Below, in pieces: positions 3 through 25,159 of a DNA stretch of 32,000 bases (position 1 is its first letter; each line of letters opens with the position of its first letter). The stretch comes from Candidatus Saccharimonadota bacterium (GTDB lineage Bacteria > Patescibacteriota > Gracilibacteria > UBA1369 > 2-02-FULL-48-14). The stretch is from positions 1,020,001 through 1,052,000 of the forward strand of contig OZ246396.1 in the NCBI GenBank assembly GCA_965230905.1, given 5' to 3'. A program made the position numbers and the translations under genes. A model generated the notes under the pieces. That model was not told the DNA's origin, made no database searches, and saw nothing but the letters and a program-made list of their open reading frames with translations.

Positions 3-569
3 CCCGAAGAATGGCTGTTTGAGGATATATCTTTTGCCAATCCACATTACGCCGCGATTGAGAACTTAGTGGAAATGGGAATATTTGAAGGTTATGCCGA
101 TAATACTTTCCGACCAGAAACTGAAATCAACCGAGCTGAACTCTTGAAGATTTTGGTGGAAGGTCGGGACATTGAGGTGGATGCTTCCTTGAATAAGAAC
201 TGTTTCCCTGATGTTGGGGAAGAATGGTATTCCCAGTACGTTTGCTACGCCAAATACCGAGGATGGATCAAGGGCTACAGTGACGGTACTTTTAGGCCCA
301 GCGACACGGTGAATAAAGTGGAGGCGCTCAAGATGCTCTTCAATGTCTATGAAATGGAGCTGAGTGAAGACGCTACGGTTGCGAATCTTAAGTACACCGA
401 TCTCGATGAAAATGCTTGGTACGCCATCTACGTATGGAAAGCCTCTAGCTTGGGAATTTTGGAAGAAACCGTGGGTGGAACCTTTAACGGTGCTGACGGT
501 AGAAACCGGGGTGATATGGCCGAAGAACTCTACCGCTACTTAGTGGTGGAGGAAGGGCTTAAGGAATAA
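3..569 (+). CDS. S-layer homology (SLH) domain protein, C-terminal part (5' end lies off the window)
   Basis: Frame 3 is open from the window edge, so the ORF-track GTG at 69 is internal. There are three tandem ~55-aa repeats with an SLH-like signature: FEDISFANPHYAAIENLVEMGIFEGYADNTFRPETEINRAELLKIL, then FPDV..WYSQYVCYAKYRGWIKGYSDGTFRPSDTVNKVEALKML, then YTDLDENAWYAIYVWKASSLGIL. The stop is TAA at 567-569. Confidence 0.8.
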   Translation, partial: PEEWLFEDISFANPHYAAIENLVEMGIFEGYADNTFRPETEINRAELLKILVEGRDIEVDASLNKNCFPDVGEEWYSQYVCYAKYRGWIKGYSDGTFRPSDTVNKVEALKMLFNVYEMELSEDATVANLKYTDLDENAWYAIYVWKASSLGILEETVGGTFNGADGRNRGDMAEELYRYLVVEEGLKE

Positions 570-1196: not shown

Positions 1197-1273
1197 TGGT
1201 GCACCCAGAGGGATTCGAACCCCCAACCCTCGGTTCCGAAGACCGATGCTCTATCCAGTTGAGCTATGGGTGC
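1197..1273 (-). tRNA. tRNA-Arg (anticodon UCG), CCA-encoded
   Basis: The reverse complement reads GCACCCA TA GCTC AACTGGATA GAGC A TCGGT CTTCGGA ACCGA GGGTT GGGGG TTCGAAT CCCTC TGGGTGC ACCA. This gives a 7-bp acceptor stem, D, anticodon and T arms with one G:U pair, a GTTCGAAT T-loop, anticodon TCG at positions 34-36, and 77 nt including the encoded CCA. Confidence 0.9.
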
Positions 1274-2065: not shown

Positions 2066-5000
2066 TTACTTTGAGCGTTTCTCTTGCCACTCGGTCCACC
2101 ACACCAGCATGGGGCTGGCGATGAAGATGGAAGAGTAGGTTCCAGCCGTGATACCAATGATGAGCGCGAGTACGAACCAACGGATGCTTTCGGCACCGAA
2201 GATGAAGAGCGCGGTGATGGTGATCAAAGTACAAACGGAAGTGTTGATAGAACGAGCCATGGTTTGGTTGAGCGCCTTGTTGGCGGTTTCGGCCAAGGTT
2301 TCGTTGTTGCCGCGGAAGCGGAGGTTCTCACGAATACGGTCGAACACCACAATGGTGTCGTGAACCGAGAATCCCATGATGGTCAGCAGCGCGGTGATGA
2401 AAAGGGCGTCCACTTCCACGTCCATGTAGTGGCCCAGGATAACGAAGATTCCAATCACAATGATCACGTCGTGGAGCAGCGCTGCAATGGCAGAGAGCCC
2501 GAACTTCCAGGCGCTGATTTCCTTAGTCACTTTGCGGAAGGCAAAGGCGATGTAGAGCACGATCATGATGGCCGTGATCACAATGGCGATGAGCGCTTTG
2601 TTCTTCAAAGTTTGTCCGATGGTGGGTCCTACGGTTGTGAAGCGGATCTCTTCAAAAGCTTCTTGATCGGTTGAGAGGGCAGTCACAATGGCTTGATGCT
2701 CCACTTCGGAGATGTGCTTCATGCGGATCAGGAAGGTGCCTTGATCGGTGCTCACGATTTGTGGAGTTCCGAAGTCAGCCACCAAAGTGGTTTCCACTGT
2801 TTCTAAGCTTTCAGTCAGAGTTTCGCTGGTGGTGCTTTCGTTCATGCGAACTTCAATCATGGTTCCTCCGGTGAAGTCCAGACCGTAGTTAACGGGGAAG
2901 ATCAGGATAGCGATGATAGCAATGAGCGCGAGGCCTCCAGAAATGGCGGCCCAGAGTTTGGTGTTTTGAATGATGGGAAGCATTTTGGTGCGAGCGACGC
3001 GAGGCTTGCCCCAGAGACTGAGTTTTTCAGCCAAGGTCTTGTTGGAGGCAGCTGCGGTGAGCAAGGTGCGTGTGAGCATGATGGCGCTGAACATGGAGAG
3101 CAGAATTCCGAGTGCGAGGTTGAGAGCGAATCCACGGATGATAGAGGAACCGAAGTAGAACAAAATGATACAAGTAATAAGTGAAGAGAAATTGGAATCG
3201 CGGATGGAATCCCAGGCGCGTTTGAACCCTTCTTCAATGGCTTGAGTAACGCTGCGTCCGTGTCCGAGTTCTTCTTTCATACGTTCAAAGATCAGTACGT
3301 TGGCGTCCACGGCCATACCAATAGAAAGGATTACTCCGGCGATACCCGCCAGCGTGAGAGTGATTTTGGTGGAGAGCACCATGGTCAGGAAGAAGAGTAC
3401 GAAACAAGCCACCAAAAAGGCGATGAATTTTTCTCCGCCGGAATCCCGGCTCTTAAGAATGATGTGAACCACTACGCCGAATACCACGAGCGCAATGAGC
3501 AAGGCCACGGCGGTGGGGAGAGCGGTTTTAATGATGAAGATGAGGAGCAGGGAATAGATTCCAAGCGCAATGCTTGCGATGAACCCAGGCAGACGGTAGT
3601 AAAGGATCATGAACAGAGCCAGGATGATCACTCCAATCATTCCTCCGAAGAGGCTTTGATCGAGGGCTTCCTGACCGAGCGTTGCGCTGATGTTGTATTG
3701 TCCTACGAGTTCAACGGGAGCGGGAATAGCTCCGGTGTTGAGATCACGGGCGAGGTCTTGTGCTTCTTCTAAAGTGAAGCTTCCGCTGATTTGTGCCTGA
3801 CCACCGGAGATTTTTTCATTCACATTGGGGGCAGAAATTAGGTTTCCTCCCACAAAGATGGCGATGCGTTTTCCCACGTTCTTTTCGGTGAGCTGTTCAA
3901 ACATTGTTGAGCCTTCGTCGGTGAAGGTGATGCTCACAAAAGGTTGGTAGGCTTGGTTGAACTGCACGTCCGCATGTTCAAAGTGTTCTCCGGTCATCAC
4001 AGATTCTTCGGCCCAAGGGCTGGGGGCAGTGCTGAAAACGATTTTATTGAAGGCCACTTTTTCGACTTCAATGGTTTCGGTGCCGGCTTCCACTTTTTCG
4101 TAAATCTGAATGAGGTGGTATCCGAATTCTGTTTCCACTACTTCGGAAACGCCGTTCACCGGCAAGTCGAAGGCTGCCTTTTCAAAGTCTTCGGTCATGG
4201 CGCCTTTTCCAAAAGAGCCCAGGTCACCCCCTTTCTCCTTTCCGGTGCTGTCATCGGTGTATTCCGTAGCGAGGGTTTCAAAAGAGCCTCCTTCCTTGAG
4301 TTTAGCTTGAACTTCTTGGATGCGAGCCAAGGCTTCTTCTTGGGTTCGGGTGATGCTTTCTTCCGCTCGTTCGGCCCCGGTGTAGGCCACCAAAATGTGG
4401 CGTGCGCTCACTTTTGCTTCGATTTCCTTAGTTTCTTCCTCGAGCTTGCGATCGGTGATTTGAATAACGCCCATTCCTTTGTTTTGTACGGCCGCTCCAC
4501 TTTCATCGATGGTGTAGCCATCGTCGAGTTCAAAAGGTCCAAACACAGCACCCACTTCTTTATCTGCCACGGCGGCTTGCAGGGCGGTGCTGAGGACGCT
4601 TACGTCGGTGAGTTCCACGGTTTCATACATCACTTCGTCTCGGAATTCTGTTTTTGCATCTTCAGCCAAGGCTTCAAACTCTTCTCCGGCTTTCACGCTG
4701 GCTTCAAAAGCCTTAGAAGCTTCGCTAGCCCAGGCTGCTTGTTCCGCATCTTCGGGATTTGGATTCTCTTCACGGAATTCCAATTGAATGGTTTTTCCCA
4801 CGGTGTTCTTGGCTTCGTCCAAATCGGTGATTCCAGCCAGTTCCACTACTACATGGTAAGCATCTCCAATATTGGAAACATAGATGCTGGGTTCAGAAAC
4901 GCCCAAGCTATCCACACGGCGGCGGATCACTTCCTTAACCCCTTCCACAATTTGGTCGCGGTCGGCTTCGGCCACTTCCGTCAGGTCAATGGAGTAGTCG

Positions 5001-5128
5001 AGCTGGGTTCCTCCTTTGAGGTCGAGACCGAGCTTGAGCTCGGTAGCGTGGTCAACGTAACCCAGGACACCTGCAAAAATTAGAATGAGTAGAACCTTGC
5101 CCGCTAGAAGTCTTTTAAAGGAAAACAT
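2066..5128 (-). CDS. secDF: fused protein-export membrane protein SecDF with an inserted parvulin-type PPIase domain
   Basis: 1020 aa. N-terminal TM, then the P1 start LGLDLKGGTQL. SecD core: GKRIAIFVGGNLISAPNVNEKISGGQAQISGSFTLEEAQDLARDLNTGAIP, TLTLAGIAGVILSIGMAVDANVLIFERMKEEL. SecF core: NYGLDFTGGTMIEV, LLHDVIIVIGIFV, LTIMGFSVHDTIVVFDRIREN. Residues ~239-345 are a full PpiC/parvulin domain (see findings). Confidence 0.9.
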   Translation of the reverse strand: MFSFKRLLAGKVLLILIFAGVLGYVDHATELKLGLDLKGGTQLDYSIDLTEVAEADRDQIVEGVKEVIRRRVDSLGVSEPSIYVSNIGDAYHVVVELAGITDLDEAKNTVGKTIQLEFREENPNPEDAEQAAWASEASKAFEASVKAGEEFEALAEDAKTEFRDEVMYETVELTDVSVLSTALQAAVADKEVGAVFGPFELDDGYTIDESGAAVQNKGMGVIQITDRKLEEETKEIEAKVSARHILVAYTGAERAEESITRTQEEALARIQEVQAKLKEGGSFETLATEYTDDSTGKEKGGDLGSFGKGAMTEDFEKAAFDLPVNGVSEVVETEFGYHLIQIYEKVEAGTETIEVEKVAFNKIVFSTAPSPWAEESVMTGEHFEHADVQFNQAYQPFVSITFTDEGSTMFEQLTEKNVGKRIAIFVGGNLISAPNVNEKISGGQAQISGSFTLEEAQDLARDLNTGAIPAPVELVGQYNISATLGQEALDQSLFGGMIGVIILALFMILYYRLPGFIASIALGIYSLLLIFIIKTALPTAVALLIALVVFGVVVHIILKSRDSGGEKFIAFLVACFVLFFLTMVLSTKITLTLAGIAGVILSIGMAVDANVLIFERMKEELGHGRSVTQAIEEGFKRAWDSIRDSNFSSLITCIILFYFGSSIIRGFALNLALGILLSMFSAIMLTRTLLTAAASNKTLAEKLSLWGKPRVARTKMLPIIQNTKLWAAISGGLALIAIIAILIFPVNYGLDFTGGTMIEVRMNESTTSETLTESLETVETTLVADFGTPQIVSTDQGTFLIRMKHISEVEHQAIVTALSTDQEAFEEIRFTTVGPTIGQTLKNKALIAIVITAIMIVLYIAFAFRKVTKEISAWKFGLSAIAALLHDVIIVIGIFVILGHYMDVEVDALFITALLTIMGFSVHDTIVVFDRIRENLRFRGNNETLAETANKALNQTMARSINTSVCTLITITALFIFGAESIRWFVLALIIGITAGTYSSIFIASPMLVWWTEWQEKRSK

Positions 5129-7684: not shown

Positions 7685-8743
7685 TTATTGCCTAGCAAAC
7701 CCTTCGGGTCCGCCTGGAAGTTTGCTTAAGAGAGTTTTAAGATCGGAACTTTTGTCTTTGGGACAGATGAGGGTGTAGCCGTCGGAGCTCACCACCACCA
7801 TATTCTTGAGGCCAAAGGCGGCAATGCGAGTAGTGCCTTCATTGTAAACCAGGCTTCCTTCGCAATCCACTGCGGTGGCGTCGCCTTTAACGATGTTTGA
7901 ACGAGGGGTTTCGGCGAGTTCTTCGTGCAGGGAGGCAAAGGTGCCAATATCGCTCCAGCCTAGGTCGGCGGGGATGATGCGCACGCGAGCGGGGTCGACT
8001 TTTTCCATGATTCCGTAGTCGACGGAAATTTTATCACAGAGGGGGTAGCACGTTTCAAGGGAGTCGCCGGACTGGATTTTTTTGAGTTGTTCGTAGGTTT
8101 GAGGAAGGTGCTTTTCGAATTCATCTAAAATCGTGCTGACTTTCCACACATAGTAACCCGTGTTCCAGAGATAGCTATAAGACGAAAGGAAACGTTTGGC
8201 GGTTTCGTAATCGGGTTTTTCTTTGAAGGCTTTGAATTCATAAACTTCGATGCCGTCGCGTTCGCTGAGCATGCGGCCGATTTTTACATAACCCAGGTTC
8301 ACGTTGGGGTACTTGGCTTTTACTTCAATAATATTGAGGGTGTTTTCCTCCTGGGCCAGGCGTTCTGCTGCATACAATTTTTGTTCAAACTCGGCGGCGT
8401 CTTGGACAAGGTGGTCTGCGTAAACCACGGCCATCACGGCGTTGGGGTCTTTTTTAGCGATGAGCGCAGCCGCGAGACCAATGCAGGGTCCGGTGTCTTG
8501 CATGCTGGGTTCGAGGATGAGGTTTTCTTCCGGTACTTGAGGGAGTTGCTGGCGAACCAGGTCTTTGTACTGGGCATTGGTGCTCACGTAGATGTCTTCC
8601 GGTTTCACAAAAGAAACGCGATCGTAGGTCTCCTGGAGCATGGTTCGGCTGGAAACCAGTTTTTGAAACTGCTTGGGTTTTTCGGCGTGGCTCATGGGCC
8701 AGAGGCGCGTGCCCACTCCACCGGCTAAGATCACAATTTTCAT
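7685..8743 (-). CDS. manC: mannose-1-phosphate guanylyltransferase (nucleotidyltransferase domain only)
   Basis: 352 aa. The N-terminal MKIVILAGGVGTRLWPMSHAEKPKQFQKL is the NTP-transferase G-loop typical of ManC/CpsB. Its start overlaps the pilD stop (ATGA). Confidence 0.85.
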   Translation of the reverse strand: MKIVILAGGVGTRLWPMSHAEKPKQFQKLVSSRTMLQETYDRVSFVKPEDIYVSTNAQYKDLVRQQLPQVPEENLILEPSMQDTGPCIGLAAALIAKKDPNAVMAVVYADHLVQDAAEFEQKLYAAERLAQEENTLNIIEVKAKYPNVNLGYVKIGRMLSERDGIEVYEFKAFKEKPDYETAKRFLSSYSYLWNTGYYVWKVSTILDEFEKHLPQTYEQLKKIQSGDSLETCYPLCDKISVDYGIMEKVDPARVRIIPADLGWSDIGTFASLHEELAETPRSNIVKGDATAVDCEGSLVYNEGTTRIAAFGLKNMVVVSSDGYTLICPKDKSSDLKTLLSKLPGGPEGFARQ

Positions 8744-9492
8744 AAGAGGCTTAAATAAAGGTCCAGAATAGGGTCTCCGAAGAAGAAGGCTAACACGGTT
8801 CCGAGCACAAGGAAAGGACCCAGGGGAATGGCCGTTTTACCTGTCGCCGCTTTGGTGGCCAGCAAATACACGCTCACGATGCTGCCAATGATGTAGCTCA
8901 TCATGATGGCGAGCAGGGTCATGGGCCAGGCGAGCAGAAAGCCCATGAAGGCACCGATGCGCAGATCGCCGCTACCGATCCATTTTCCACGGGAGAGCAG
9001 ATATTGAAGTGCAAAAAAGGTCGTGCCCACGGCCGCGCCCAGGAGTCCGCTCTGCACGTCTCCAATCCAAATATTTGCAAAAAAAGCGTAGGCAATGGCG
9101 GGCAGCAGGATGAGGTCGTGGATTTCTTGGTAGCGCAGGTCGTAAAAGAAAATGAAGAGGAGCACAAAGAAATGCGGAGCGAGCCAGGCAAAGAGTTCCC
9201 AGTTTTGCACTTGCAGGTAGAGTGCGGCAAAGAGCAGGGCGCTCACCAGTTCGGTGACGGGGTACCAAAAAGAAATTCGATCTTTGCAGGCGTGGCATTT
9301 GCCGCGCAGCCACAAATAGCTGAGCAGTGGAATCAGGTCGCGGGCGCGCAAGGTTTTTTTGCAGTTGGCACAGTGGGAGCGTCCGGCAAAAATTCCTTTT
9401 TCGCCAAAGTGTAGGCGGGGCAGTAGCATGCTGAGAAAACTCCCCACCAGGAGTCCGCCTATAAAACACAGAAGCGTGTTCCAAAGGGTCAT
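8740..9492 (-). CDS. pilD: type IV prepilin peptidase (A24 family)
   Basis: 250 aa and polytopic. Cytoplasmic Cys pairs CANCKKTL...CHACKDRISFWYPVTE match the N-terminal domain. The downstream GSGDLRIGAFMG matches the second catalytic-Asp motif of A24 peptidases. Confidence 0.85.
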   Translation of the reverse strand: MTLWNTLLCFIGGLLVGSFLSMLLPRLHFGEKGIFAGRSHCANCKKTLRARDLIPLLSYLWLRGKCHACKDRISFWYPVTELVSALLFAALYLQVQNWELFAWLAPHFFVLLFIFFYDLRYQEIHDLILLPAIAYAFFANIWIGDVQSGLLGAAVGTTFFALQYLLSRGKWIGSGDLRIGAFMGFLLAWPMTLLAIMMSYIIGSIVSVYLLATKAATGKTAIPLGPFLVLGTVLAFFFGDPILDLYLSLL

Positions 9493-11664: not shown

Positions 11665-13059
11665 TTAAATCGTCATCATCACAAGAGCACGTTTTTCGTC
11701 GGAGAGTTTGATGGAGACGATTTGTTGGCCCTTCTTGATGGCCTTTTGTTTTTTGAGTTCGGCGATGATTTCGTCGGTGCGGAAAGGGCCGGTGTGGTGG
11801 TACACATGGTGCACGCCCCACAAAAAGTGGAGTTGGCGCGCGAGGTGTTCGGAGTTTGTGACTACGAGTACGGGATTTTTTGGTCGGTGTTTGAGTACGC
11901 AGCGCGCGGTATAGCCGTGTTTGGTGAGCACCACAATGGCGGCTGCATCTATTTTGTCGGCCATCACGCAGGCATTGAGCGCCACGGTTTCATCTTCAAA
12001 CTGAGCGGGATTGATGGAAGCGGGCACGGGGAAGAGTTCGACGTTTTCAAAAATGGCTTTTTCCGTGAGTTCGGCCACGCGGGCTAGGGTTTGAACGGCC
12101 TTGTTTGGGTATTTGCCCACGGCGGTTTCGTTGGAGAGCATGAAGGCGTCGGCGTGGTCGAAAATAGCGGTGGCGGCATCGCTGACTTCGGCGCGGGTGG
12201 CGATGGGATTTTCCACCATGGATTGCAAAATTTGGGTAGCGATGATCACGGGTTTTCCTTCCTGGCGGCAGAGTGCGAGTATGCGTTTTTGTTCCACTGG
12301 CACGCGTTCTGCTTCAATCTCAATGCCCAGGTCGCCACGGGCCACCATAATACCGTCCGCACTTTGAATGATTTCGTTTATGTTTAGGAGGGCTTTGGGA
12401 CGTTCCACTTTTGCGATGAGCATCAGAGGGCGCTTGGTGTGAGCTTGAACCGCTTTGCGTACGCGTTCAATGTCTTCCGCAGTTTCCACAAAGGAAATCG
12501 CCACGGCGTCCACGCCCAGGGTTTTTACTCCAAAGGCGAGGTCGGCTTTATCTTTTGCATTGAGGGCTTCTGTGGAGGGAAGTTTGGAATCAGGGATGTT
12601 CACCCCTTTGTGCGATTTTAGCACGCCGCCTACGATTATTTTGGCTTTCACAAGCGCTCCCTTGATGGATACAATTTTTGTTCGTATTAGTCCGTCTTCA
12701 ATCAAAAGCGCGTGGCCGGGTCGGACCACTTTGGGTAGGGCGGCGTAGGGAAGAGGGATGCTGCCATTTTCTCCTTTCATAGAGAAGGTCACCGTTTCGC
12801 CTTTTTTAACAAGCAGGCCGGCGTCGGGGAGTTTGCCGAGGCGGATTTTTGGGCCCTGCAAATCTTGCATCAAAACAATGCATTTGCCAGTTTCTTTTTC
12901 TACGGCGCGCACGTTCTTCACGATCTTTTTGAATTGTTCATAGGTGCCATGCGAAAAGTTGAGACGAGCAATGTTCATGCCCGCCTCAACTAAAGCTTTA
13001 ATTTCGGATTTTTCTTCCGTTGCAGGCCCGAGGGTCGCAACGATTTTGGTGTGGCGCAT
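11665..13059 (-). CDS. pyk: pyruvate kinase
   Basis: 464 aa. MRHTKIVATLGPAT, MNIARLNFSHG, MVARGDLGIEI and MLSNETAVGKYP are canonical pyruvate kinase motifs. The start overlaps the upstream stop (TAATG). Confidence 0.92.
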   Translation of the reverse strand: MRHTKIVATLGPATEEKSEIKALVEAGMNIARLNFSHGTYEQFKKIVKNVRAVEKETGKCIVLMQDLQGPKIRLGKLPDAGLLVKKGETVTFSMKGENGSIPLPYAALPKVVRPGHALLIEDGLIRTKIVSIKGALVKAKIIVGGVLKSHKGVNIPDSKLPSTEALNAKDKADLAFGVKTLGVDAVAISFVETAEDIERVRKAVQAHTKRPLMLIAKVERPKALLNINEIIQSADGIMVARGDLGIEIEAERVPVEQKRILALCRQEGKPVIIATQILQSMVENPIATRAEVSDAATAIFDHADAFMLSNETAVGKYPNKAVQTLARVAELTEKAIFENVELFPVPASINPAQFEDETVALNACVMADKIDAAAIVVLTKHGYTARCVLKHRPKNPVLVVTNSEHLARQLHFLWGVHHVYHHTGPFRTDEIIAELKKQKAIKKGQQIVSIKLSDEKRALVMMTI

Positions 13060-16000
13060 TACGCTTCTAGTTTACGGTTTCGGTAGAAGAGTGCAAGGGC
13101 GGTTAAGCTGGCGAGTACCGCGATGCTTCCCAGTGCAATGGTCCAAGGTGAGGCTCCGGTTTCTCCGCTTGCGAAGGCGGTGTTGGTCACTTCAAAGGAA
13201 ATTTGTGTGGGGGTGCTGGTGGCGCCCGTTTTGAGGTCTTGAGCGTACCAAGTCACCGTGTGATCTCCGAGTTCCAGGTTTTCTACGGGACGAGCGTTTA
13301 GGGTTTGGTCAGAAGCGTCTGCGATCAAGGTTTGGCTGAAAATAGTACTTTTCCATGCAATCACGATCATGTAATCGCTGGCTGCTTTGAGTGAGAGGGT
13401 AGGAAGACGTTCGGTTATTGCGGATTGGTTTTGAAGGCCGAGTCCATCGAACAATGGTTTTTTAACGGTGGACATTGCCGTGAGACTGATGGGGCGTGAA
13501 AGGTCTGTGAGTTCCTCTAAACTATCTCCAGTGGTCAGCACTAAAATGTGTTTTCCCGCCTTCAATTCAGACGTGGTCAACAAGATGTAGCGGCCGTTTT
13601 CATCTGACTTGGTTTCTCCGAGTAAGGTCAAGCTGCCATCGCTGTTCACTTCATGAGCTTGCACGGTAGTTTCTTCAGCGGCGTGTCCCATGAAGAGTTG
13701 CTCTCCTTCTTCAACGATTGCGCCATCATTCATATTCACAATGCTCACTCTGCCAGCGGCTATACTTGATGTGCTTACCTTAGGATTGGTTCCGTAGTGA
13801 AGCACTTCATCTCCATCGGTGAGGCCGTCTGCATCGCTATCATTATCTTGAGGGTCGGTTCCGTTGTAGAATTCAGAAAGGTCGGAAAGGCCGTCTTCAT
13901 CGGAGTCCAAAGTTCCCAAAGGTTCAGTGATTTGTTCTGATTCAATGTAGCTGATCAACTCCTGTGAACTGACGTAAGGTTGATTGTAAACCAAGGGTTC
14001 CTCATCTTCAGCATCGGCGGTTCCGTCATGATCGCTGTCGTAGCTTTCTGGATCCGTTTCTCCAATGAAGAGTTCTTCAGCATCGGTGAGGCCGTCGTCA
14101 TCGGAATCTGCTGAGTTGATGTTTCCTCCGTATAAAATTTCTTCCCAGTCGTAGGCTCCGTCTTTATCGCTGTCGCGAGTTGCTGGAATGGATTTACCAC
14201 CTGCTCGTAGGTCAATCAGAAGCTGGGGAACGCCTTGTGCATTGCTTTCTCCAAAAGCTGCGTTGGTTAAAGCGGCGGTCTCGTAGGTTTCTTCACTAAT
14301 GACAGTGGAGATTAAGGTCTCACGAACCGATACTTCCTGAATGGGGTCGATGAATTGATAAATTCCGCTGTAGAAACTGCTTTCCGTTTCACCTGATTCA
14401 CCTGAGTTGTTTGAGTCATTGCTGTCTTCTTCAGACTCAGTTTCAGAGCCCGTGGAGGTCTCTGATTCGGTAGAGGTTTCAGAGCCCGTGGAGGTCTCTG
14501 AGCCGGACTCTTCACCTGATTCTGCTTCGTCCTCTTCTTCTCCAGCCATGCTTTCTTGTTCTTCATCATCATTTCCAACGGTTTCTTCGCTTGAATTATT
14601 TGAGTTAGAGCTGGTGCTGCCTCCGTTGCTGCCTCCGCTGCTTCCCCCTCCTGAGGTATTGGTGACGGTGGCAATGCTAGCTGTGGAGGTGTTTGCTGCA
14701 TTGTCCACAATAGTAATGGAGATGGAGTTGCTTCCGGGTTGAACCGATACGCTCACCGAGAAATTTCCAAGGCCATCTACATTAGCTCCTGAGTCGGTGC
14801 CGTTGACGTAAACGTTTGCACCCACTTCTGTTCCGGAACCAGTAATGGTTACCGTGGAAGTGGAGGTAGAAGGGTAGCTCAAGGCAGGCGCGGTGGGTGT
14901 TATGGTGTCGCGAGTGATGGTGTGACTTGCTGTGGTGGAAATGTTGCTACTGAAATCTACGGATGCAATGGATAGGTTGTTCTCACCTTCACTCAGGGCA
15001 TAATTCGTCACGGTCCAGGTGGTGAGTGCGTCACTTACTACTTGTTCGACGCCACCGATCCACAGGCTGGTGTTGGCTTCTTTTGTACCGGTGAGCGTAG
15101 CGGTAGTGCTTGAGGTGTAGCTACTGTTGGCAGGGCTTGTCACCGTGGGCACCACGGGCGCGGTGCTGTCTGTAACGGTAGAAAAAGTCGCTGAGCTTGC
15201 CGAGGTACTAAAGGTGGAGTTGGTGGCGGTTACGGAAACCACACTGCTGGCCGAAATAGCCATGTGGTTCTCCCAGGTCCCTCCACTAGTGGCGGTGGTA
15301 TTTGCTACATAGACTCCGTTCACAAAAATCTCAACGGTGGCGTTGGCTGCGCTGGTACCTCCTGCATAAGAGGTAGTGGCTGAACTTATGGTAGGAGTGG
15401 CGATGCTTTCGTTTGCTGGATTGGTACGGCTTATATAGGAGCTGGTACCGTCGGTGCTACACGTGTTTTTTCTAATATGGTTGAAGTCACCGGCTGTGGT
15501 TGTCATGTTTATGCAAGACTTTCCAGTTGTAGCCAGTATTGTGTTGGCAGCACCCGTAGCGGTTCCACCAATTACATTTGAATTGGATGTGGAATCTATA
15601 AGGATTCCATGCTCGGTGTTCAGCCTTTGGTTTAGGCCCTCGGTACCAATCAGGTTGTATACAACCACCATGCTGTCGGCTCCATTTATATAAAGTCCGC
15701 TGCCCCCGTTTGAGGCAATGCGATTTCGTCTACCGCTTACGTTTGCCTCGCCTATGATTCCAGAGTCTGCAACGGTTCTAATCCCATGAGCTCCATTGGC
15801 CAGCGCTGTTGAGTCATCCGCTTGGAGCCCAATGGTGTTGTCGTAGATTTGTGCACCGGTTGCTCCTGTGGCGGCGATATGAATTCCATTGCCGGTGTTT
15901 CCGGATATCAGGTTACCTTGATCGGTGCCTCCAATGATCAGGCCTGTAGCCGTTCCTCCGGTAACCACGAGAATACCATCTCCACCGTTGGCGATGGCAG

Positions 16001-17132
16001 CGGTTCCTAGTGCGTTGGTACCTATTTTATTATATTTAATAATATTAGAGCTCGCGTTGTTTATGGTTCCATCTATTCGAATACCAGACAGTGTGTTTCC
16101 TGAGATGATGTTTATGCTGGAACTGGTGGTACCTCCTATTGTATTGGATCCGCTTGCTAAGAGTATACCGGAGGCGCCGTTCGCAAGTGCAGCCGTTCCG
16201 GCTGAGCTCACCCCAATGTAATTTTTTTCAATCACGATTCCATCTGAGCCATCCACATATATACCGTTTCCGGTGTTACCTGAGATTACGTTTGTAGTAC
16301 CTACGTCAGTTCCACCAATGGTGGTACTGGTTACACCGCTACCGATGTAGATTCCGTTTGAACCGTTTCCAAGGTCGTTGCTTCCGGTGCTCGTTCCTAT
16401 GTAATTTCCTTTTATGATGGCTGCGGAATCTGACAAGAGAATTCCATTCCCTGTGTTGTTCACTATGACGTTCCGTTCTGCCCCGCTGGTACCCCCAATC
16501 ACCACTCCAGTAGAGGTGTTTATTACGCTGATCCCGGTTCCATTTGCGACATCTACTCCAACATAATTATTTATGAGGGTTACGTTGTCTGCACCGTTGA
16601 CGCGAATACCTGAACCGCTGCAATTGTCCCAGTAATTGAGGTCTGGAGTAGCACTTCCTCCAATGGTTGCCCCACTTACACTGGAGCTAAGCACTATCCC
16701 GTTCGTTGCCCCAAGACAGCCGATTCCTTTTACAACGTGACTGGCTCCGCTACTTATACTCAAACAGTGATCCAGCCCGGTGGCTCTTAAGGTCACGTCT
16801 GGATTGGGCGATATGAAGTTATGTGCCGTTGTTCCATCAATGGTGATGGTTTCAGTGATGACCGGAAGGTTGGAGGACAAGGTAATTCCAGTTTGAAAGA
16901 GACCTTCGGTGCCGTCAAAATTAACGGTATCGGCCCCTACGTTGGCATTTGCGTCGGTGATGGCTTGGCGAAGGGAGCCGGCTCCTGAGTCACTTGCATT
17001 GATTACGGTGTAGGTGGCGGCTTGTGCTGAGGGCGCTTGCATCAATACCCCCATGAACAGGGCAACTCCTGCGAGAAACAGGAAGTTGAATAAACCGTTT
17101 TGCGGTTTGATTTGGTTTGACGTTTGTGCCAT
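13059..17132 (-). CDS. giant tail-anchored surface protein: signal peptide, parallel beta-helix repeats, Ig-like domains, acidic Ser/Thr/Glu linker, thrombospondin-type-3-like Ca-binding repeats, C-terminal TM
   Basis: The ORF is open to 17192, but MAQTSNQ (ATG 17132) precedes a signal-like LFNFLFLAGVALFMGVLMQAPSAQA, and a promoter-like element covers 17164-17192. GSLRQAITDAN is followed by about 20 or more turns of G-N-x-G-N-G-I type beta-helix repeats (~15440-17020). There are five DSD-x-DG-x-x-D repeats (~13803-14180). The C-terminus is PWTIALGSIAVLASLTALALFYRNRKLEA. Confidence 0.85.
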   Translation of the reverse strand: MAQTSNQIKPQNGLFNFLFLAGVALFMGVLMQAPSAQAATYTVINASDSGAGSLRQAITDANANVGADTVNFDGTEGLFQTGITLSSNLPVITETITIDGTTAHNFISPNPDVTLRATGLDHCLSISSGASHVVKGIGCLGATNGIVLSSSVSGATIGGSATPDLNYWDNCSGSGIRVNGADNVTLINNYVGVDVANGTGISVINTSTGVVIGGTSGAERNVIVNNTGNGILLSDSAAIIKGNYIGTSTGSNDLGNGSNGIYIGSGVTSTTIGGTDVGTTNVISGNTGNGIYVDGSDGIVIEKNYIGVSSAGTAALANGASGILLASGSNTIGGTTSSSINIISGNTLSGIRIDGTINNASSNIIKYNKIGTNALGTAAIANGGDGILVVTGGTATGLIIGGTDQGNLISGNTGNGIHIAATGATGAQIYDNTIGLQADDSTALANGAHGIRTVADSGIIGEANVSGRRNRIASNGGSGLYINGADSMVVVYNLIGTEGLNQRLNTEHGILIDSTSNSNVIGGTATGAANTILATTGKSCINMTTTAGDFNHIRKNTCSTDGTSSYISRTNPANESIATPTISSATTSYAGGTSAANATVEIFVNGVYVANTTATSGGTWENHMAISASSVVSVTATNSTFSTSASSATFSTVTDSTAPVVPTVTSPANSSYTSSTTATLTGTKEANTSLWIGGVEQVVSDALTTWTVTNYALSEGENNLSIASVDFSSNISTTASHTITRDTITPTAPALSYPSTSTSTVTITGSGTEVGANVYVNGTDSGANVDGLGNFSVSVSVQPGSNSISITIVDNAANTSTASIATVTNTSGGGSSGGSNGGSTSSNSNNSSEETVGNDDEEQESMAGEEEDEAESGEESGSETSTGSETSTESETSTGSETESEEDSNDSNNSGESGETESSFYSGIYQFIDPIQEVSVRETLISTVISEETYETAALTNAAFGESNAQGVPQLLIDLRAGGKSIPATRDSDKDGAYDWEEILYGGNINSADSDDDGLTDAEELFIGETDPESYDSDHDGTADAEDEEPLVYNQPYVSSQELISYIESEQITEPLGTLDSDEDGLSDLSEFYNGTDPQDNDSDADGLTDGDEVLHYGTNPKVSTSSIAAGRVSIVNMNDGAIVEEGEQLFMGHAAEETTVQAHEVNSDGSLTLLGETKSDENGRYILLTTSELKAGKHILVLTTGDSLEELTDLSRPISLTAMSTVKKPLFDGLGLQNQSAITERLPTLSLKAASDYMIVIAWKSTIFSQTLIADASDQTLNARPVENLELGDHTVTWYAQDLKTGATSTPTQISFEVTNTAFASGETGASPWTIALGSIAVLASLTALALFYRNRKLEA
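14441..14501 (-). repeat. in-frame tandem repeat (25-nt exact core at 36-nt period) in the acidic linker of the giant surface protein
   Basis: TTTCAGAGCCCGTGGAGGTCTCTGA occurs at 14441-14465 and again at 14477-14501. It encodes the SETSTGSETSTESETSTGSE low-complexity run. Confidence 0.8.
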
Positions 17133-17163
17133 TGACGTGGTTTTTATTTTTATAAATCTTAAT

Positions 17164-17192
17164 ATTGTAGCACAAAAATGCCTGTTAAACAA
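17164..17192 (-). promoter_or_regulatory. candidate promoter of the giant surface-protein gene (TTGTTT-17-TGcTACAAT)
   Basis: On the minus strand, TTGTTT (17187-17192) is followed by a 17-nt spacer ending in TGC and then TACAAT (17164-17169), an extended -10. It sits in the gap after the glmS stop. Confidence 0.45.
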
Positions 17193-20831: not shown

Positions 20832-21839
20832 TCAGTTCGTCAACTTTTCATACTTGGTGAAATTCTCATATCCTGTTTTGGTAACCCTTCCCATGTCTTC
20901 AATGCGCACGCCGAATTTACCGGGCAGGTAGATGCCGGGTTCCACGGTGACGATCATGTTTTCCTTGAGCACGTCTTTGCTGCGGCCGCTGAGGCTGGGG
21001 GATTCGTGAACGTCGAGGCCGATGCCGTGGCCGAGTGAGTGGCCGAAATGCTGCGCGGCTTCTTTGCCCATGGATTTGCGGGAAATTTCGTCGAGCTTGG
21101 AGCACTTTACGCCGGACTTCAGGGCTTTGATGGCGTCCAACTGGGAGTTGAGTACCTTGAAATAAACATCTTCTTGTTCGGCGGTCGGTTTTTTGGTGAA
21201 AAAGGTGCGGGTCATGTCGCTGCAATAGCCTTTGTATTTCATCCCCATGTCCACCAAAACTACGTCGCCGATTTTCAGTTTTTTGTTGGAATTTTGATGG
21301 TGGGGCGTGGCGCTGTTGGGGCCAAAGGCGATGATGGGTTCAAAGGAAATGTCCTCGGCACCCAGGTCGTGACCGATGGTTTTGATGCGCCAGGCCAATT
21401 CTTGCTCGGTGACGCCGTTTTTGAATAATTTAGTTATTCGCTTGAGCGTTTCTTCATTTATCTGCTGCGATTTTTTGAGGTATTTTATTTCTTCCTTGTC
21501 CTTGAGCAGGCGAAGTTCTTCGATGGGGTGCTTTGCAGGAGAAAAGGCGATGTTTTTAAAGCGTTTTTTCCAGCCTTGAAGGTCTGTGACACTTAAATGT
21601 TCCGCCTCAAATTCGAGCTTACGGCCAGCCAATTTCTTGAAAGTCTGTTCAAATTCTTTATTCAACTCAATGAAAGTGAAGGGAATTCTGGTTTTGGATT
21701 TTTCCAGCTGTTCAGCAAAACCGCGGTAACGGAAATCCGTAAAGAAAAAGTTTTTCTTAGCGCCTTTTAATAAAAATCCATAGGTTCCGGTGAAGCCTAT
21801 AAGATAGCGAACGTTCGTGAGGTGCGTGATGAGTTGCAT
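20832..21839 (-). CDS. M24B family Xaa-Pro peptidase
   Basis: 335 aa. Pita-bread metal ligands lie in VLVDMGMKYKGYCSDMTRT, HSLGHGIGLDVHE, VTVEPGIY and VRIEDM. The start overlaps the ruvA stop (TAATG). Confidence 0.85.
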   Translation of the reverse strand: MQLITHLTNVRYLIGFTGTYGFLLKGAKKNFFFTDFRYRGFAEQLEKSKTRIPFTFIELNKEFEQTFKKLAGRKLEFEAEHLSVTDLQGWKKRFKNIAFSPAKHPIEELRLLKDKEEIKYLKKSQQINEETLKRITKLFKNGVTEQELAWRIKTIGHDLGAEDISFEPIIAFGPNSATPHHQNSNKKLKIGDVVLVDMGMKYKGYCSDMTRTFFTKKPTAEQEDVYFKVLNSQLDAIKALKSGVKCSKLDEISRKSMGKEAAQHFGHSLGHGIGLDVHESPSLSGRSKDVLKENMIVTVEPGIYLPGKFGVRIEDMGRVTKTGYENFTKYEKLTN

Positions 21840-23869: not shown

Positions 23870-25150
23870 TTATTTCTTCTTTTTAATCGAACGGGTTTTG
23901 CTGCGTTTGGCAGGTTTAACCGGTTCATTTTTCAATAAAGCCCGCCGATTATAGCGATAGATGATATAGAACGCAAGTAAAACGAGGAGCAAGCTGAAGC
24001 TGATAGCGCCAGCCAGGAATTTGTAATCAAAGACGCGAACCTTCACCTCGAGGGTATCCGATTGGCCTTTGTCGTCGTAAACGGTGAGGATGGCGGTTTG
24101 TAAACCGGTTGCGTCGAAGCTGCGGGTAACCTGGGCTCCTTCTACGGTTTCATCTCCAAACTGCCACACAAATTTTACGATTCCCGTGTCATCTTGCGAT
24201 GCTGAGGCGTCGAAGGTGATCTCGTCACCCAAACCTGCAATGATCACGTCTTGGTCCATTTCCGCAACGGGCGAGGGGTTGGAGGGGTCGGTATCATTTA
24301 CATTGGCGAGGCCGTCTCCATCAATGTCGTCGTCGCTGTTGTCTCCGGTCCCGTCGTTGTCCACGTCAAACCATTCTTTAGGATCGCTTGGGAAGGGATC
24401 TTCACCATCGTTCTTGGCGTCGCCGTCAGTGTCGGAGTTTTTTGGGTCGGTTTCTTGATTGTCTTCGTCGTCGTTGAGCACCCCATCTCCATCAATATCG
24501 TCGTCGATTTCATCGGGGCTGCCGTCGGAATCTTGATCTTTGGTGTAACGCGAATCTTCGGGCATTTGGTCATCGGCGTCCAGGGTGCCGTCGTTGTCGT
24601 CGTCCGTATCGGCATTGTTTCCTTGGCCGTCACCGTCCGTGTCCTTGGATTCCAAAGAACTGATGGGGAAGGTGTCTTCTTCGTTGTTCACTCCGTCTCC
24701 GTCTTTATCGGGATCGGTGGAGTTGGGAATTCCGTCGTGATCGGTGTCCTGCTGCACATTCACCGTCTTTTGCACCACATTGTTGCCAGGGTTGTCGGAA
24801 GTTCCGTCCCAAGGAATCACGGTAACGGTAATCGTGTATTCGCCGTAGCTGGGTGGCGTCCAATCTACAAACACGTCATCACTTTTACCGGCGAGCGCGG
24901 AAATGGGCTGATCGGTGCCGATGTTCCCATCCTTACTGGTGAAACGAACGGTTCCAAGTAGGTCGGAGGGGCTGTTGTTTTGAACGGAAGCCCAGATTCG
25001 GGTGGGGCTGCCTTCAAAAAAGTAGGAGTTGCTGAACCAAACATTGGCATCTGAAACAGAAAGATCGCCACTCACGGCAAAGGCCGGGGTGGCGAGGCTG
25101 AGTAGAGAAACCAACAGCAAACTAGCAAAGGCATGGATGGATTTTTTCAT
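23870..25150 (-). CDS. tail-anchored surface protein: signal peptide, CARDB-like domain, thrombospondin-type-3-like Asp-rich repeats, PKD domain, C-terminal TM plus basic tail
   Basis: 426 aa. Signal peptide MKKSIHAFASLLLVSLLSLATPAFA. A CARDB-like beta domain (DLSVSDANVWFS...YTITVTVIPWD). About 10 DxDxDG-type repeats (~24272-24757). A PKD-like segment (FDASASQDDTGIVKFVWQFGDE...LTVYDDKGQSD). TM segment FLAGAISFSLLLVLLAFYIIY followed by RYNRR...KRSKTRSIKKKK. Confidence 0.8.
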   Translation of the reverse strand: MKKSIHAFASLLLVSLLSLATPAFAVSGDLSVSDANVWFSNSYFFEGSPTRIWASVQNNSPSDLLGTVRFTSKDGNIGTDQPISALAGKSDDVFVDWTPPSYGEYTITVTVIPWDGTSDNPGNNVVQKTVNVQQDTDHDGIPNSTDPDKDGDGVNNEEDTFPISSLESKDTDGDGQGNNADTDDDNDGTLDADDQMPEDSRYTKDQDSDGSPDEIDDDIDGDGVLNDDEDNQETDPKNSDTDGDAKNDGEDPFPSDPKEWFDVDNDGTGDNSDDDIDGDGLANVNDTDPSNPSPVAEMDQDVIIAGLGDEITFDASASQDDTGIVKFVWQFGDETVEGAQVTRSFDATGLQTAILTVYDDKGQSDTLEVKVRVFDYKFLAGAISFSLLLVLLAFYIIYRYNRRALLKNEPVKPAKRSKTRSIKKKK

Positions 25151-25159
25151 GGCGTGGGA

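What the first reader, a model, noticed from the sequence alone, without database searches (positions are those of the whole stretch)
4094..4741. Complete parvulin (PpiC) PPIase domain inserted into the periplasmic P1 region of a fused SecDF
SecDF residues ~239-345 read ARHILV...GGSFETLATEYTDDSTGKEKGGDLGSFGKGAMTEDFEKAAFDLPVNGVSEVVETEFGYHLIQI. This is an essentially textbook parvulin/PpiC signature: an N-terminal His strand, the GGDLG loop, and the C-terminal G-Y-H-hydrophobic strand. It sits between the P1-base strand (TIQLEFRE) and the canonical SecD P1-head (LTGEHF...RIAIFVGGNLISAPNV...GGQAQISG). The preceding ~100 residues (130-226: EEFEALAEDAKTE...LQAAVADKEVGAVFGPFELDDGYTI) look like a second, degenerate parvulin copy that lacks the His strand and the Gly loop. 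Parvulin foldases such as PrsA, SurA and PpiD normally act as separate proteins next to the Sec exit site. Here the foldase appears hard-wired into the motor subunit that pulls substrates out of SecYEG. The protein is about 280 aa longer than Bacillus-type SecDF. I do not know whether this architecture is already catalogued.
Basis: partly seen in the sequence, partly recalled or inferred. Interest (0 to 1): 0.7.

Follow-up and report, generated by a model that had tools for sequence, protein, structure and literature searches.

The report
Prolyl-isomerase foldase built into SecDF
A groundwater Patescibacteria (CPR) bacterium, like many of its relatives, carries a protein-folding enzyme domain (a parvulin prolyl isomerase, plus a decayed second copy) built into the outward-facing arm of the SecDF protein-export motor, so export and folding sit on one polypeptide instead of on separate proteins.

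Summary
ORF 2066-5128 (-) encodes a 1020-aa fused SecDF. A complete parvulin/PpiC domain (Pfam Rotamase_3, E=1.5e-30, residues 228-345) lies between the P1-base strand and the P1 head. The active-site tetrad H244/D293/T333/H338 and the proline pocket L303/M311/F315 are present, and the tetrad is strictly kept in 92 of 109 relatives. The AlphaFold model superposes on the Pin1 PPIase domain at 1.1 A. Residues 123-228 are a degenerate parvulin copy lacking the His strand (hhalign 96-97%); some relatives keep recognisable motifs in this copy, and others carry a third decayed copy. The gene is not an assembly chimera: the identical protein occurs in independent assemblies and in NCBI (MEK9159140.1, labelled only "SecF"). 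The architecture is widespread in Patescibacteria (Peregrinibacteria, Gracilibacteria, Magasanikbacteria, Uhrbacteria, Falkowbacteria, Parcubacteria), usually as SecD alone. It is catalogued only by automatic annotation; I found no paper describing it. The likely function is a PrsA/SurA-like foldase tethered to the substrate-pulling P1 head. It is a covalent counterpart of the non-covalent SurA-SecDF and Mycoplasma PrsA-like "dome"-Sec associations. Enzyme activity and 3-D placement are untested. I rate it a new variant of known kinds, of moderate-to-good interest.

The parts
2066..5128 (-). Whole gene: a fused SecD-SecF of 1020 aa with a tandem parvulin insertion in the P1 domain. It is NCBI MEK9159140.1.
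   Evidence: ORF. Pfam and NCBIfam hits: TIGR01129 secD 396 bits against a cutoff of 244; TIGR00966 SecF 329 against 160. The identical protein occurs in independent assemblies.
5051..5125 (-). TM1 of SecD (residues 2-26). Everything from here to TM2 faces outside the cytoplasm.
   Evidence: AF2 helix 2-26. Aligns to T. thermophilus SecDF residues 11-117.
4763..4945 (-). N-terminal part of the P1 base (SecD_1st, residues 62-122), ending in strand TIQLEFRE. The insertion begins immediately after it.
   Evidence: PF21760, E=9.9e-16. The 3AQP alignment stops at residue 120, which matches Tt residue 117.
4445..4762 (-). Copy 1 (residues 123-228): a degenerate parvulin. It has no beta1 His strand and no GGDLG loop, the C-terminal His is replaced, and the last hairpin carries a 12-14-aa insertion (DDGYTI...GMGVIQI).
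   Evidence: Weak Rotamase_2 hit, E=1.9e-4. hhalign against copy 2 gives 97.4% and 95.8%. It aligns to a motif-bearing first parvulin in relatives P0111, P0120 and P0104, which have two significant Rotamase stretches. It evolves fast: 19% identity and 4% conserved columns.
4415..4444 (-). Charged linker or strand extension between the two copies (residues 229-238).
   Evidence: In the AF2 model, strand 213-236 runs on from copy 1 towards beta1 of copy 2.
4091..4414 (-). Copy 2 (residues 239-346): a complete parvulin/PpiC PPIase domain. Tetrad: H244 (nt 4397-4399), D293 (4250-4252), T333 (4130-4132), H338 (4115-4117). Pocket: L303, M311, F315.
   Evidence: Rotamase_3 E=1.5e-30. Closest solved sequences are PrsA PPIase domains, E=3.5e-19. 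Foldseek to the Pin1 PPIase gives rmsd 1.1 A and TM 0.88. Residue mapping to Pin1 and Par14. Strict tetrad in 92/109 relatives. 47% mean identity.
4010..4090 (-). Return strand (residues 347-373): a long beta-strand hairpinned to the last parvulin strand, leading into the P1 head. In relatives it resembles a parvulin beta1 strand (SRILV, ARLLV).
   Evidence: AF2 strands 336-346 and 349-366. Alignment A3. The idea that it completes copy 1 is not established.
3719..4009 (-). SecDF P1 head subdomain (residues 374-470), the substrate-binding, swinging part of the motor.
   Evidence: PF22599, E=4.4e-30, profile positions 17-114. Aligns to Tt SecDF from residue 159 onward.
3011..3673 (-). SecD TM2-TM6 (residues 486-706), including D608 (nt 3305-3307), which is equivalent to T. 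thermophilus D340.
   Evidence: PF02355. HMMER alignment to 3AQP: GMAVDANVLIFER against GAAVDGNVLSFER. AF2 helices.
2069..2983 (-). SecF half (residues 716-1020), with the Sec_GG motif, the P4 domain, TM7-12 and the conserved HDTIVVFDRIRE.
   Evidence: TIGR00966, 328.6 bits. Alignment to SecDF 5XAM/3AQP residues 451-733, E=4e-52.

Best explanation
This is an intact proton-driven SecDF export motor. Its extracytoplasmic P1 domain carries a tandem parvulin module, about 250 aa long, spliced into the connection between the P1 base and the mobile, substrate-binding P1 head. The second parvulin (residues 239-346) is most likely an active, non-phospho-specific prolyl cis/trans isomerase of the PrsA/Par10 type. 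The first (residues 123-228) is a catalytically dead remnant that probably serves as a scaffold or peptide-binding surface, as the inactive P1 domain of SurA does. Unfolded chains leaving SecYEG are captured by the P1 head. The tethered foldase would meet them at very high local concentration, speed up proline-limited folding, and shield them, and early folding would also oppose back-sliding. In these small-genome, outer-membrane-less Patescibacteria, the fusion would replace the separate PrsA, SurA or PpiD proteins that other bacteria recruit to the Sec exit site. Shown here: the architecture, the intact active-site residues, the fold, conservation across the clade, and the reality of the gene. 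Inferred: enzymatic activity, action on Sec substrates, and the geometry relative to the SecY exit.
For: Domain order SecD_1st, Rotamase, P1_head, TM, SecF. The SecD and SecF models score above their curated cutoffs. The motor residues D608 and the SecF DR motif are conserved. The parvulin fold superposes on Pin1 at 1.1 A, in models with mean pLDDT 90.8 and 88.6. The tetrad H244/D293/T333/H338 and the pocket L303/M311/F315 map onto Pin1 H59/C113/T152/H157 and L122/M130/F134. In 109 SecD-parvulin relatives the strict tetrad is present in 92, and 12 more have Glu at the acidic position. The parvulin is about as conserved as the SecD core: 47% identity against 56-60%, while copy 1 has 19%. The closest solved sequences are PrsA foldase PPIase domains. 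Only one of the three basic residues of the Pin1 phosphate loop remains (A248/E253/R254). The architecture recurs across Patescibacteria classes, with secF fused or immediately downstream. Independent literature links parvulin chaperones physically to SecDF. AlphaFold places both SurA parvulin domains on the SecDF P1 head, and SurA binds the holo-translocon (PMC9987972). In Mycoplasma, PrsA-like PPIC lipoproteins form a dome over SecYEG-SecDF, and the active PPIC domain touches the emerging substrate (bioRxiv 10.1101/2025.04.25.650208; 10.1101/2024.09.05.611430).
Against: No activity data exist. For SurA, PpiD and PrsA, the literature (my own knowledge, not re-checked here) reports that PPIase activity is partly or wholly dispensable for their in vivo role, so conserved residues do not prove that catalysis is the selected function. 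A few relatives (P0099/P0122, P0102, P0070) have lost the catalytic histidines yet keep the insertion. I could not read the model coordinates, so I do not know whether the active site faces the P1-head groove or the SecY exit. I also could not test whether these genomes lack stand-alone parvulins.
Confidence: 0.6

Rival explanations
1. The parvulin module is a non-catalytic chaperone, holdase or structural extension. It would enlarge the substrate-binding surface of P1 or act as a spacer reaching into the cell wall or S-layer space, and prolyl isomerase chemistry would be irrelevant to its selected role.
For: Copy 1 has already lost every catalytic feature yet is retained in all relatives. The 781-aa relatives carry a further decayed copy. 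P0099/P0122, P0102 and P0070 lost the catalytic His residues but keep the insert. From my own knowledge, the SurA P1 and PpiD parvulin domains are inactive yet functional.
Against: Copy 2 keeps the strict His/Asp(Cys)/Thr(Ser)/His tetrad in 92 of 109 relatives, with Glu at the acidic position in 12 more. It keeps M311 in 101/109 and F315 in 108/109. It is far more conserved than copy 1 (47% against 19% identity). That pattern is what selection on the catalytic site would produce.
Confidence: 0.25
2. The module is a regulatory or mechanical element of the motor. Because it sits at the base-head connection, it would act as a lid, brake or substrate sensor that gates the swing of the P1 head (the F-form to I-form transition) rather than folding substrates.
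For: The insertion replaces the roughly 40-residue base-to-head connector of T. thermophilus SecDF (Tt 118-158) with 256 residues. Long beta-ribbons (213-236 and 349-366) join the module to the flanking SecD parts. Troman et al. note that SecDF adopts the extended I-form when SurA parvulins are docked on the head.
Against: Nothing here tests dynamics directly. A purely mechanical role does not explain conservation of the catalytic tetrad and proline pocket. The copy number varies between two and three repeats among relatives, which argues against a finely tuned mechanical element.
Confidence: 0.1
3. The ORF is an artefact: a chimeric assembly or a read-through fusion of a prsA-like gene with secD (and secF).
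For: None was found.
Against: The identical 1020-aa protein is encoded on a 138-kb ENA contig, on two separately assembled Logan runs and on a 1,307,106-bp NCBI contig. The parvulin lies inside the P1 domain, flanked on both sides by SecD sequence in one frame. At least 100 relatives from many samples have the same order. Other fused SecDF forms of 1015-1099 aa exist.
Confidence: 0.01

Closest known systems
PrsA (lipoprotein foldase of Bacillota; e.g. B. subtilis 4WO7, B. anthracis 6XD8/6VJ4, Listeria 5HTF)
   Same: PrsA PPIase domains are the closest solved sequences to copy 2 (E=3.5e-19 to 1e-15). Both are non-phospho-specific parvulins with an Asp-type active site. Both sit on the outer face of the cytoplasmic membrane of an outer-membrane-less cell, and both presumably act on Sec substrates.
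   Different: PrsA is a separate, lipid-anchored dimer whose parvulin is inserted into an N/C 'SurA-like' chaperone domain. Here there is no lipobox and no SurA_N-type domain (no such Pfam hit). The NCBIfam PrsA models score 69 bits against cutoffs of 343-361. The host scaffold is the SecD P1 domain itself.
SurA (E. coli periplasmic chaperone, 1M5Y) and its reported docking on the SecDF P1 head
   Same: Both have tandem parvulins with the first inactive and the second active. Foldseek aligns 254-308 columns of the model to SurA, spanning both copies. Troman et al. 2023 show that SurA binds the holo-translocon, and AlphaFold puts both SurA parvulin domains on the SecDF P1 head. The fusion makes the same pairing covalent.
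   Different: SurA is soluble, has the N- and C-terminal chaperone core (PF09312 and PF13624, absent here), and serves outer-membrane protein biogenesis, a pathway not expected in Patescibacteria.
Mycoplasma pneumoniae 'dome' complex (Mdp444/436/489 PrsA-like PPIC lipoproteins on SecYEG-SecDF)
   Same: It is also a genome-reduced bacterium without an outer membrane. It also couples parvulin-type foldase domains physically and almost obligately to the Sec translocon including SecDF, with one active and several inactive PPIC domains.
   Different: That coupling is a non-covalent assembly of very large, separate lipoproteins forming a chamber. It is described as unique to Mycoplasmas. It has no insertion into SecD.
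Canonical SecDF (T. thermophilus 3AQP/5YHF, D. radiodurans 5XAN)
   Same: Shared features are the TM core, the P1 base and head, the P4 domain, the conserved TM Asp and the SecF DR motif. Foldseek gives E=1e-20 and phmmer gives E=2e-62.
   Different: The roughly 40-residue base-to-head connector is replaced by 256 residues that hold two parvulin-derived domains, making the protein about 280 aa longer.
PpiD/YfgM (E. coli)
   Same: It is a membrane-tethered parvulin-containing chaperone stationed at SecYEG (PMC9643414, listed).
   Different: PpiD has its own N-terminal TM anchor, a SurA-like chaperone domain and an inactive parvulin. It is a separate protein.

Membership tests
SecD/SecF protein-export membrane proteins (TIGR01129 SecD, TIGR00966 SecF, Pfam PF02355) | Family HMMs score above their curated cutoffs | tested here: met
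   TIGR01129 scores 396 bits (cutoff 244.4), TIGR00966 328.6 (160), TIGR00916 340.7 (148.6) and PF02355 211.9 (20.5). The fused-SecDF equivalog models stay below their cutoffs (613 against 721), presumably because of the insert.
SecD/SecF protein-export membrane proteins | P1 domain with base and head subdomains between TM1 and TM2 | tested here: met
   PF21760 at 62-122 and PF22599 at 374-470. Foldseek to SecDF structures gives E about 1e-20.
SecD/SecF protein-export membrane proteins | Conserved charged TM residues of the proton path (Tt D340 in SecD; the D..DR motif in SecF) | tested here: met
   D608 aligns to Tt D340. HDTIVVFDRIRE aligns to LNDSIIVSDRIRE of 5XAM. D608 is nearly invariant in alignment A1.
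SecD/SecF protein-export membrane proteins | PMF-dependent stimulation of translocation | not testable with these tools
   This needs biochemistry or genetics.
Parvulin / PpiC-type PPIase (Pfam PF00639, PF13616) | Family HMM scores above the gathering threshold | tested here: met
   Rotamase_3 scores 106.6 bits (cutoff 22.5) and Rotamase 90 bits (21.7).
Parvulin / PpiC-type PPIase | Parvulin fold: four-stranded sheet with four helices | tested here: met
   AF2 pLDDT is 95-98 over the domain. Foldseek to the Pin1 PPIase gives rmsd 1.1-1.3 A and TM 0.88; to PrsA 6XD8, TM 0.91.
Parvulin / PpiC-type PPIase | Catalytic His-Cys/Asp-Thr/Ser-His tetrad and hydrophobic proline pocket | tested here: met
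   H244/D293/T333/H338 and L303/M311/F315 align to Pin1 H59/C113/T152/H157 and L122/M130/F134. They are conserved in relatives.
Parvulin / PpiC-type PPIase | Measured prolyl isomerase activity | not testable with these tools
   This needs an enzyme assay.
Parvulin / PpiC-type PPIase (copy 1, residues 123-228) | HMM above threshold and catalytic residues present | tested here: not met
   Rotamase_2 scores 22.6 bits, below the cutoff of 27. Copy 1 has no beta1 His and no GGDLG, and the C-terminal His is replaced. Homology to parvulins is nonetheless supported (hhalign 95.8-97.4%). It is a parvulin-derived remnant, not a functional family member.
PrsA foldase lipoproteins | N-terminal lipobox, and a parvulin nested in an N/C SurA-like chaperone domain | tested here: not met
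   The domain is internal to SecD. There are no PF13624, PF13623 or PF09312 hits. The NCBIfam PrsA models score 63-69 bits against cutoffs of 343-361.
SurA | SurA N-terminal chaperone domain plus tandem parvulins (P1 inactive, P2 active) | tested here: not met
   The tandem inactive/active parvulin arrangement is present. The defining SurA_N domain is absent.
Pin1-type phospho-specific parvulins | Basic cluster K63/R68/R69 in the beta1-alpha1 loop | tested here: not met
   The equivalents are A248/E253/R254, and the loop is 4 residues shorter.

The most novel reading that the evidence does not exclude
The parvulin array is mechanically coupled to the motor and not just tethered near it. Because it is spliced into the base-head connection, each PMF-driven swing of the P1 head would move the PPIase active site and the dead copy's binding surface onto and off the emerging chain. 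That would make a single-polypeptide, energy-coupled translocation-and-folding machine. It would be the only extracytoplasmic foldase in these minimal cells and a lineage hallmark of large parts of the Patescibacteria.
Probability: 0.12. Interest if true: 0.8.

Novelty: new variant of a known kind. Interest (0 to 1): 0.55.

Why it matters
How proteins fold after leaving SecYEG, in a compartment without ATP, is an open question. So is whether SecDF hands substrates directly to chaperones. Recent work argues for physical coupling: SurA docks its parvulin domains on the SecDF P1 head in E. coli, and a PrsA-like dome covers the Sec translocon in Mycoplasma. A natural, widespread covalent fusion of tandem parvulins to the P1 head is 'Rosetta-stone' evidence that this partnership is functional and ancient enough to be fixed in a whole radiation. 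It also offers a simple, single-chain model system: one polypeptide, no partner stoichiometry, and a ready high-confidence AlphaFold model. That system could test whether folding catalysis at the exit site aids translocation. For Patescibacteria biology, it indicates how cells with minimal genomes and heavy dependence on surface and secreted proteins economise on envelope proteostasis. For annotation, it flags a systematic error: full-length proteins are named only SecD or SecF, and fragments are named 'peptidylprolyl isomerase'.

Tried and rejected

2. The genome-contig scan with alignment A2 was largely swamped by free parvulins picked up through the VETxFGYHII pattern. Only about a dozen of the 80 loci were SecD-embedded, and the window's own genome was not among them.

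3. The profile search with alignment A3 and the representative search were dominated by free two- or three-parvulin proteins and SurA. They were of little use for counting the SecD-embedded family. They do show that the insert resembles free tandem-parvulin proteins.

4. I had the idea that the strand after copy 2 (residues 349-366; 'SRILV'-like in relatives) is the missing beta1 of copy 1, which would amount to a circular permutation. Prepending it to copy 1 did not raise Rotamase HMM scores in four proteins; only in P0104 did Rotamase_3 coverage extend further. The result is inconclusive, and model coordinates cannot be inspected with these tools.

5. My first hhalign test of the extra segment in the 781-aa relatives was a self-match, because the template columns overlapped the query. 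I discarded it and redid it cleanly.

6. I at first took D302 of GGDLG to be the catalytic Asp. Alignment to Pin1 and Par14 corrected this to D293.

7. Tsukazaki et al. 2011, which gives the exact head/base residue limits, is not held in the library. Head and base limits here rest on the Pfam models and the 3AQP alignment.

8. I rejected the chimeric-assembly explanation. I rejected Pin1-like phospho-specificity. I rejected membership in PrsA or SurA proper.
Full report
**What is in the sequence.** The finding lies inside one long ORF, window 2066-5128 on the minus strand, 1020 aa. Coordinates 4094-4741 correspond to residues 130-345.

Pfam gives this order of domains:
- SecD_1st at 62-122
- Rotamase_3 at 228-345 (E=1.5e-30; 106.6 bits against a gathering score of 22.5), with Rotamase at 244-342 (E=2e-25)
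- SecDF_P1_head at 374-470 (E=4.4e-30)
- two SecD_SecF_C membrane domains and two Sec_GG motifs

NCBIfam's SecD (TIGR01129, 396 bits against 244) and SecF (TIGR00966, 329 against 160) models both pass their cutoffs. The protein is therefore a genuine fused SecDF.

The head begins MTGEHF rather than LTGEHF.

**Where the insertion sits.** Against T. thermophilus SecDF (3AQP), residues 8-120 align to Tt 11-117 and residues 377-532 align to Tt 159-315. The roughly 40-residue connector between the last N-terminal strand of the P1 base and the P1 head is thus replaced by 256 residues.

P1 lies between TM1 and TM2, so the whole insert is on the outer face of the cytoplasmic membrane.

The rest of the motor looks intact. 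D608 aligns with the essential Tt D340. The SecF motif HDTIVVFDRIRE matches the solved SecDFs.

**Copy 2 is a complete parvulin.** The closest solved sequences are PrsA PPIase domains from Bacillus and Listeria, followed by Pin1.

AlphaFold models built on alignments of relatives are confident. Residues 1-715 have mean pLDDT 90.8, and residues 103-385 have 88.6, with 95-98 over the parvulin. Foldseek matches the model to SecDF structures (E about 1e-20). It also matches Pin1's catalytic domain at rmsd 1.1-1.3 A (TM 0.88) and PrsA 6XD8 at TM 0.91.

Pairwise alignment to Pin1 and Par14 gives the residue equivalences:
- Tetrad: H244 (Pin1 H59), D293 (C113; Par14 D74), T333 (T152), H338 (H157)
- Proline pocket: L303, M311, F315 (Pin1 L122, M130, F134)
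- Phosphate-binding basic cluster: Pin1 K63/R68/R69 corresponds to A248/E253/R254

I therefore infer a non-phospho-specific, PrsA/Par10-like enzyme.

**Copy 1 is a decayed parvulin.** On its own, region 123-242 gives only a sub-threshold Rotamase_2 hit (E=1.9e-4). A profile of this region from 109 relatives aligns to the copy-2 profile with 97.4% probability (E=1e-11). The probability is still 95.8% (E=7e-9) after removing all relatives that have parvulin-like motifs there.

Some relatives carry GGDLG and GYH motifs in this first copy and give two significant Rotamase stretches (P0111, P0120 from a Magasanikbacteria MAG, and P0104). Copy 1 always lacks the N-terminal His strand.

In the window, copy 1 has also lost the Gly loop and the C-terminal His, and it has a 12-14-residue insertion in the last hairpin.

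Foldseek aligns 254-308 columns of the models to SurA, spanning both copies.

**The gene is real.** The identical 1020-aa protein is encoded in three independent sources:
- a 138-kb contig of an ENA groundwater assembly
- contigs assembled independently from two sequencing runs
- a 1,307,106-bp NCBI contig, where it is MEK9159140.1, 'protein translocase subunit SecF [Patescibacteria group bacterium]'

**Distribution.** A search with the P1 region returned 987 hits. Nearly all of the best 120 combine Rotamase, SecD_1st, P1_head and SecD_SecF_C. Where a source names them, they come from Peregrinibacteria, Gracilibacteria, Magasanikbacteria or the 'Patescibacteria group'.

Genome loci add Uhrbacteria, Falkowbacteria and Parcubacteria. 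In all of these the parvulin lies between the SecD N-terminus and the P1 head, and secF follows directly.

SecD and SecF are fused in one frame in several Peregrinibacteria-type loci and in one Magasanikbacteria locus. They are separate genes elsewhere. Other fused forms of 1015-1099 aa exist.

One locus labelled 'Ca. Binatia' (65% GC) has the two-copy form at 56% identity to CPR proteins. Whether that is a true case outside the radiation is unresolved.

**Selection.** In the 109-sequence alignment:
- the first His is kept in 106 sequences and the second in 107
- Thr or Ser is kept in all 109
- Asp or Cys at 292/293 is kept in 94, with Glu in 12 more
- the strict tetrad is present in 92

Mean identity to the window protein by region is 47% for copy 2, 56% for the P1 head, 60% for the TM core and 19% for copy 1. 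Copy 2 is thus conserved like a working part of the machine, while copy 1 drifts. Three lineages (P0099/P0122, P0102, P0070) have lost the histidines yet keep the insert.

**Repeat-number variation.** About half of the aligned relatives (the ~781-aa group) carry an extra ~80-residue segment between the two copies. It is itself a truncated parvulin remnant (hhalign 96.2%, E=2e-9).

The strand after copy 2 looks like a parvulin beta1 strand in two-copy relatives. P0113 continues it into a loop and a helix. This suggests the module arose from a tandem parvulin array. A test of whether this strand completes copy 1 was inconclusive.

Free proteins with two or three parvulins, and SurA, are the nearest non-SecD relatives of the insert.

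[quoted passage not shown] A catalytically competent parvulin and a second parvulin-derived surface are spliced next to that head. This would expose every exported chain to a foldase at very high local concentration. That would speed proline-limited folding, shield the chain, and probably disfavour back-sliding.

This is an inference from architecture and conservation. Activity and geometry are untested.

The main rival is a chaperone or structural role that does not need catalysis. Such a role is known for other parvulin chaperones and is hinted at by the decayed copies and the few His-less lineages. A regulatory role at the hinge is possible but unsupported.

**Comparison with what is known.** Functionally the module works like PrsA or SurA, but it is a member of neither family:
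- It has no lipobox and no SurA-type chaperone domain.
- Troman et al. (PMC9987972) showed that SurA binds the holo-translocon, and AlphaFold docks both SurA parvulin domains on the SecDF P1 head.
- Two Mycoplasma studies describe PrsA-like PPIC lipoproteins assembled on SecYEG-SecDF, with the active PPIC domain contacting the substrate.

The Patescibacteria protein is the covalent version of these partnerships.

Seven full-text searches found no description of a SecD-parvulin fusion. Databases hold it only under automatic names.

**Verdict.** The finding is real and correctly interpreted. It is a previously undescribed (as far as I could search) but widespread variant that combines two well-known modules. 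Interest is moderate to good, mainly as natural fusion evidence for SecDF-foldase coupling and as a simple experimental system.

Noticed in passing
Relatives P0041-P0098 (the ~781-aa group); alignment A1 columns between window residues 224 and 242: 54 of 109 relatives carry an extra ~80-aa segment between copy 1 and copy 2. It is a third, truncated and degenerate parvulin (hhalign 96.2%, E=2e-9), so the number of repeats in the SecD insert varies between lineages.
   Followed up: yes
window 4010-4090 (-), residues 347-373; the same position in P0100, P0104, P0117 and P0118: The strand after the intact parvulin reads like a parvulin beta1 strand in two-copy relatives (VSRILVK, VARLLVKK, VSHIFIG). 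P0113 continues it into a loop and a helix. It may complete the sheet of copy 1, a circular-permutation-like arrangement derived from a longer tandem array. An HMM test with permuted constructs was inconclusive.
   Followed up: partly
Relatives P0100, P0104, P0111, P0112, P0117, P0118, P0120 (beta1-alpha1 loop of copy 2): The two-copy (Magasanikbacteria/Parcubacteria-type) proteins have a conserved Cys pair, 'HILICYxGAxxCE', which may form an extracytoplasmic disulfide. The window protein lacks it (ILVAYTGAERAEE).
   Followed up: no
L014:3485-5683 (DATJFD010000021.1, labelled Candidatus Binatia bacterium): This 65%-GC contig, assigned to Binatia, encodes a two-copy SecD-parvulin that is 56% identical to Patescibacteria proteins. 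Either the taxon label or bin is wrong, or the architecture exists outside the radiation.
   Followed up: partly
P0099/P0122 (1015-aa fused SecDF on a 1.0-Mb contig), P0102, P0070: These relatives have lost one or both catalytic histidines of the otherwise conserved parvulin but keep the whole insertion. In P0099 no Rotamase hit reaches significance.
   Followed up: partly
window 2066-5128 (-) and database records: Automatic annotation is inconsistent. The window protein is named only 'SecF' at NCBI. Full-length relatives are named 'SecD'. Contig-truncated relatives are named 'peptidylprolyl isomerase'.
   Followed up: yes
window 2084-2674, 3242-3772, 3944-5083 (+); also 25133-27103 (+): Long ORFs run antisense to secDF (up to 379 aa) and to gyrA (656 aa). 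They have no family hits of their own in the ORF list context and are most likely shadow ORFs of the coding strand.
   Followed up: no
window 69-569 (+), 13059-17192 (-), 23870-25150 (-): Several probable surface proteins lie near secDF: an SLH-domain protein (with another SLH/fn3 protein just upstream on the longer contig L001), a 1377-aa protein with a bacterial TSP3 repeat and a glucodextranase-B-like domain, and a PKD-domain protein. These are likely Sec substrates of this cell.
   Followed up: no
window 28671-30932 (+): A 753-aa VirB4/TraC/TraG-type P-loop ATPase sits among housekeeping genes (gyrA, tgt, ruvA, glmS). It may belong to a type IV secretion or conjugation-like system, or to a pilus-related system.
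   Followed up: no
window 8740-9492 (-), 20832-21839 (-), 1197-1273 (-): These positions hold a prepilin peptidase (A24), an Xaa-Pro M24 peptidase (prolidase type) and a tRNA-Arg(TCG). All long ORFs read through with the standard code, which argues against the UGA-recoded Gracilibacteria and fits a Peregrinibacteria-like genome.
   Followed up: no
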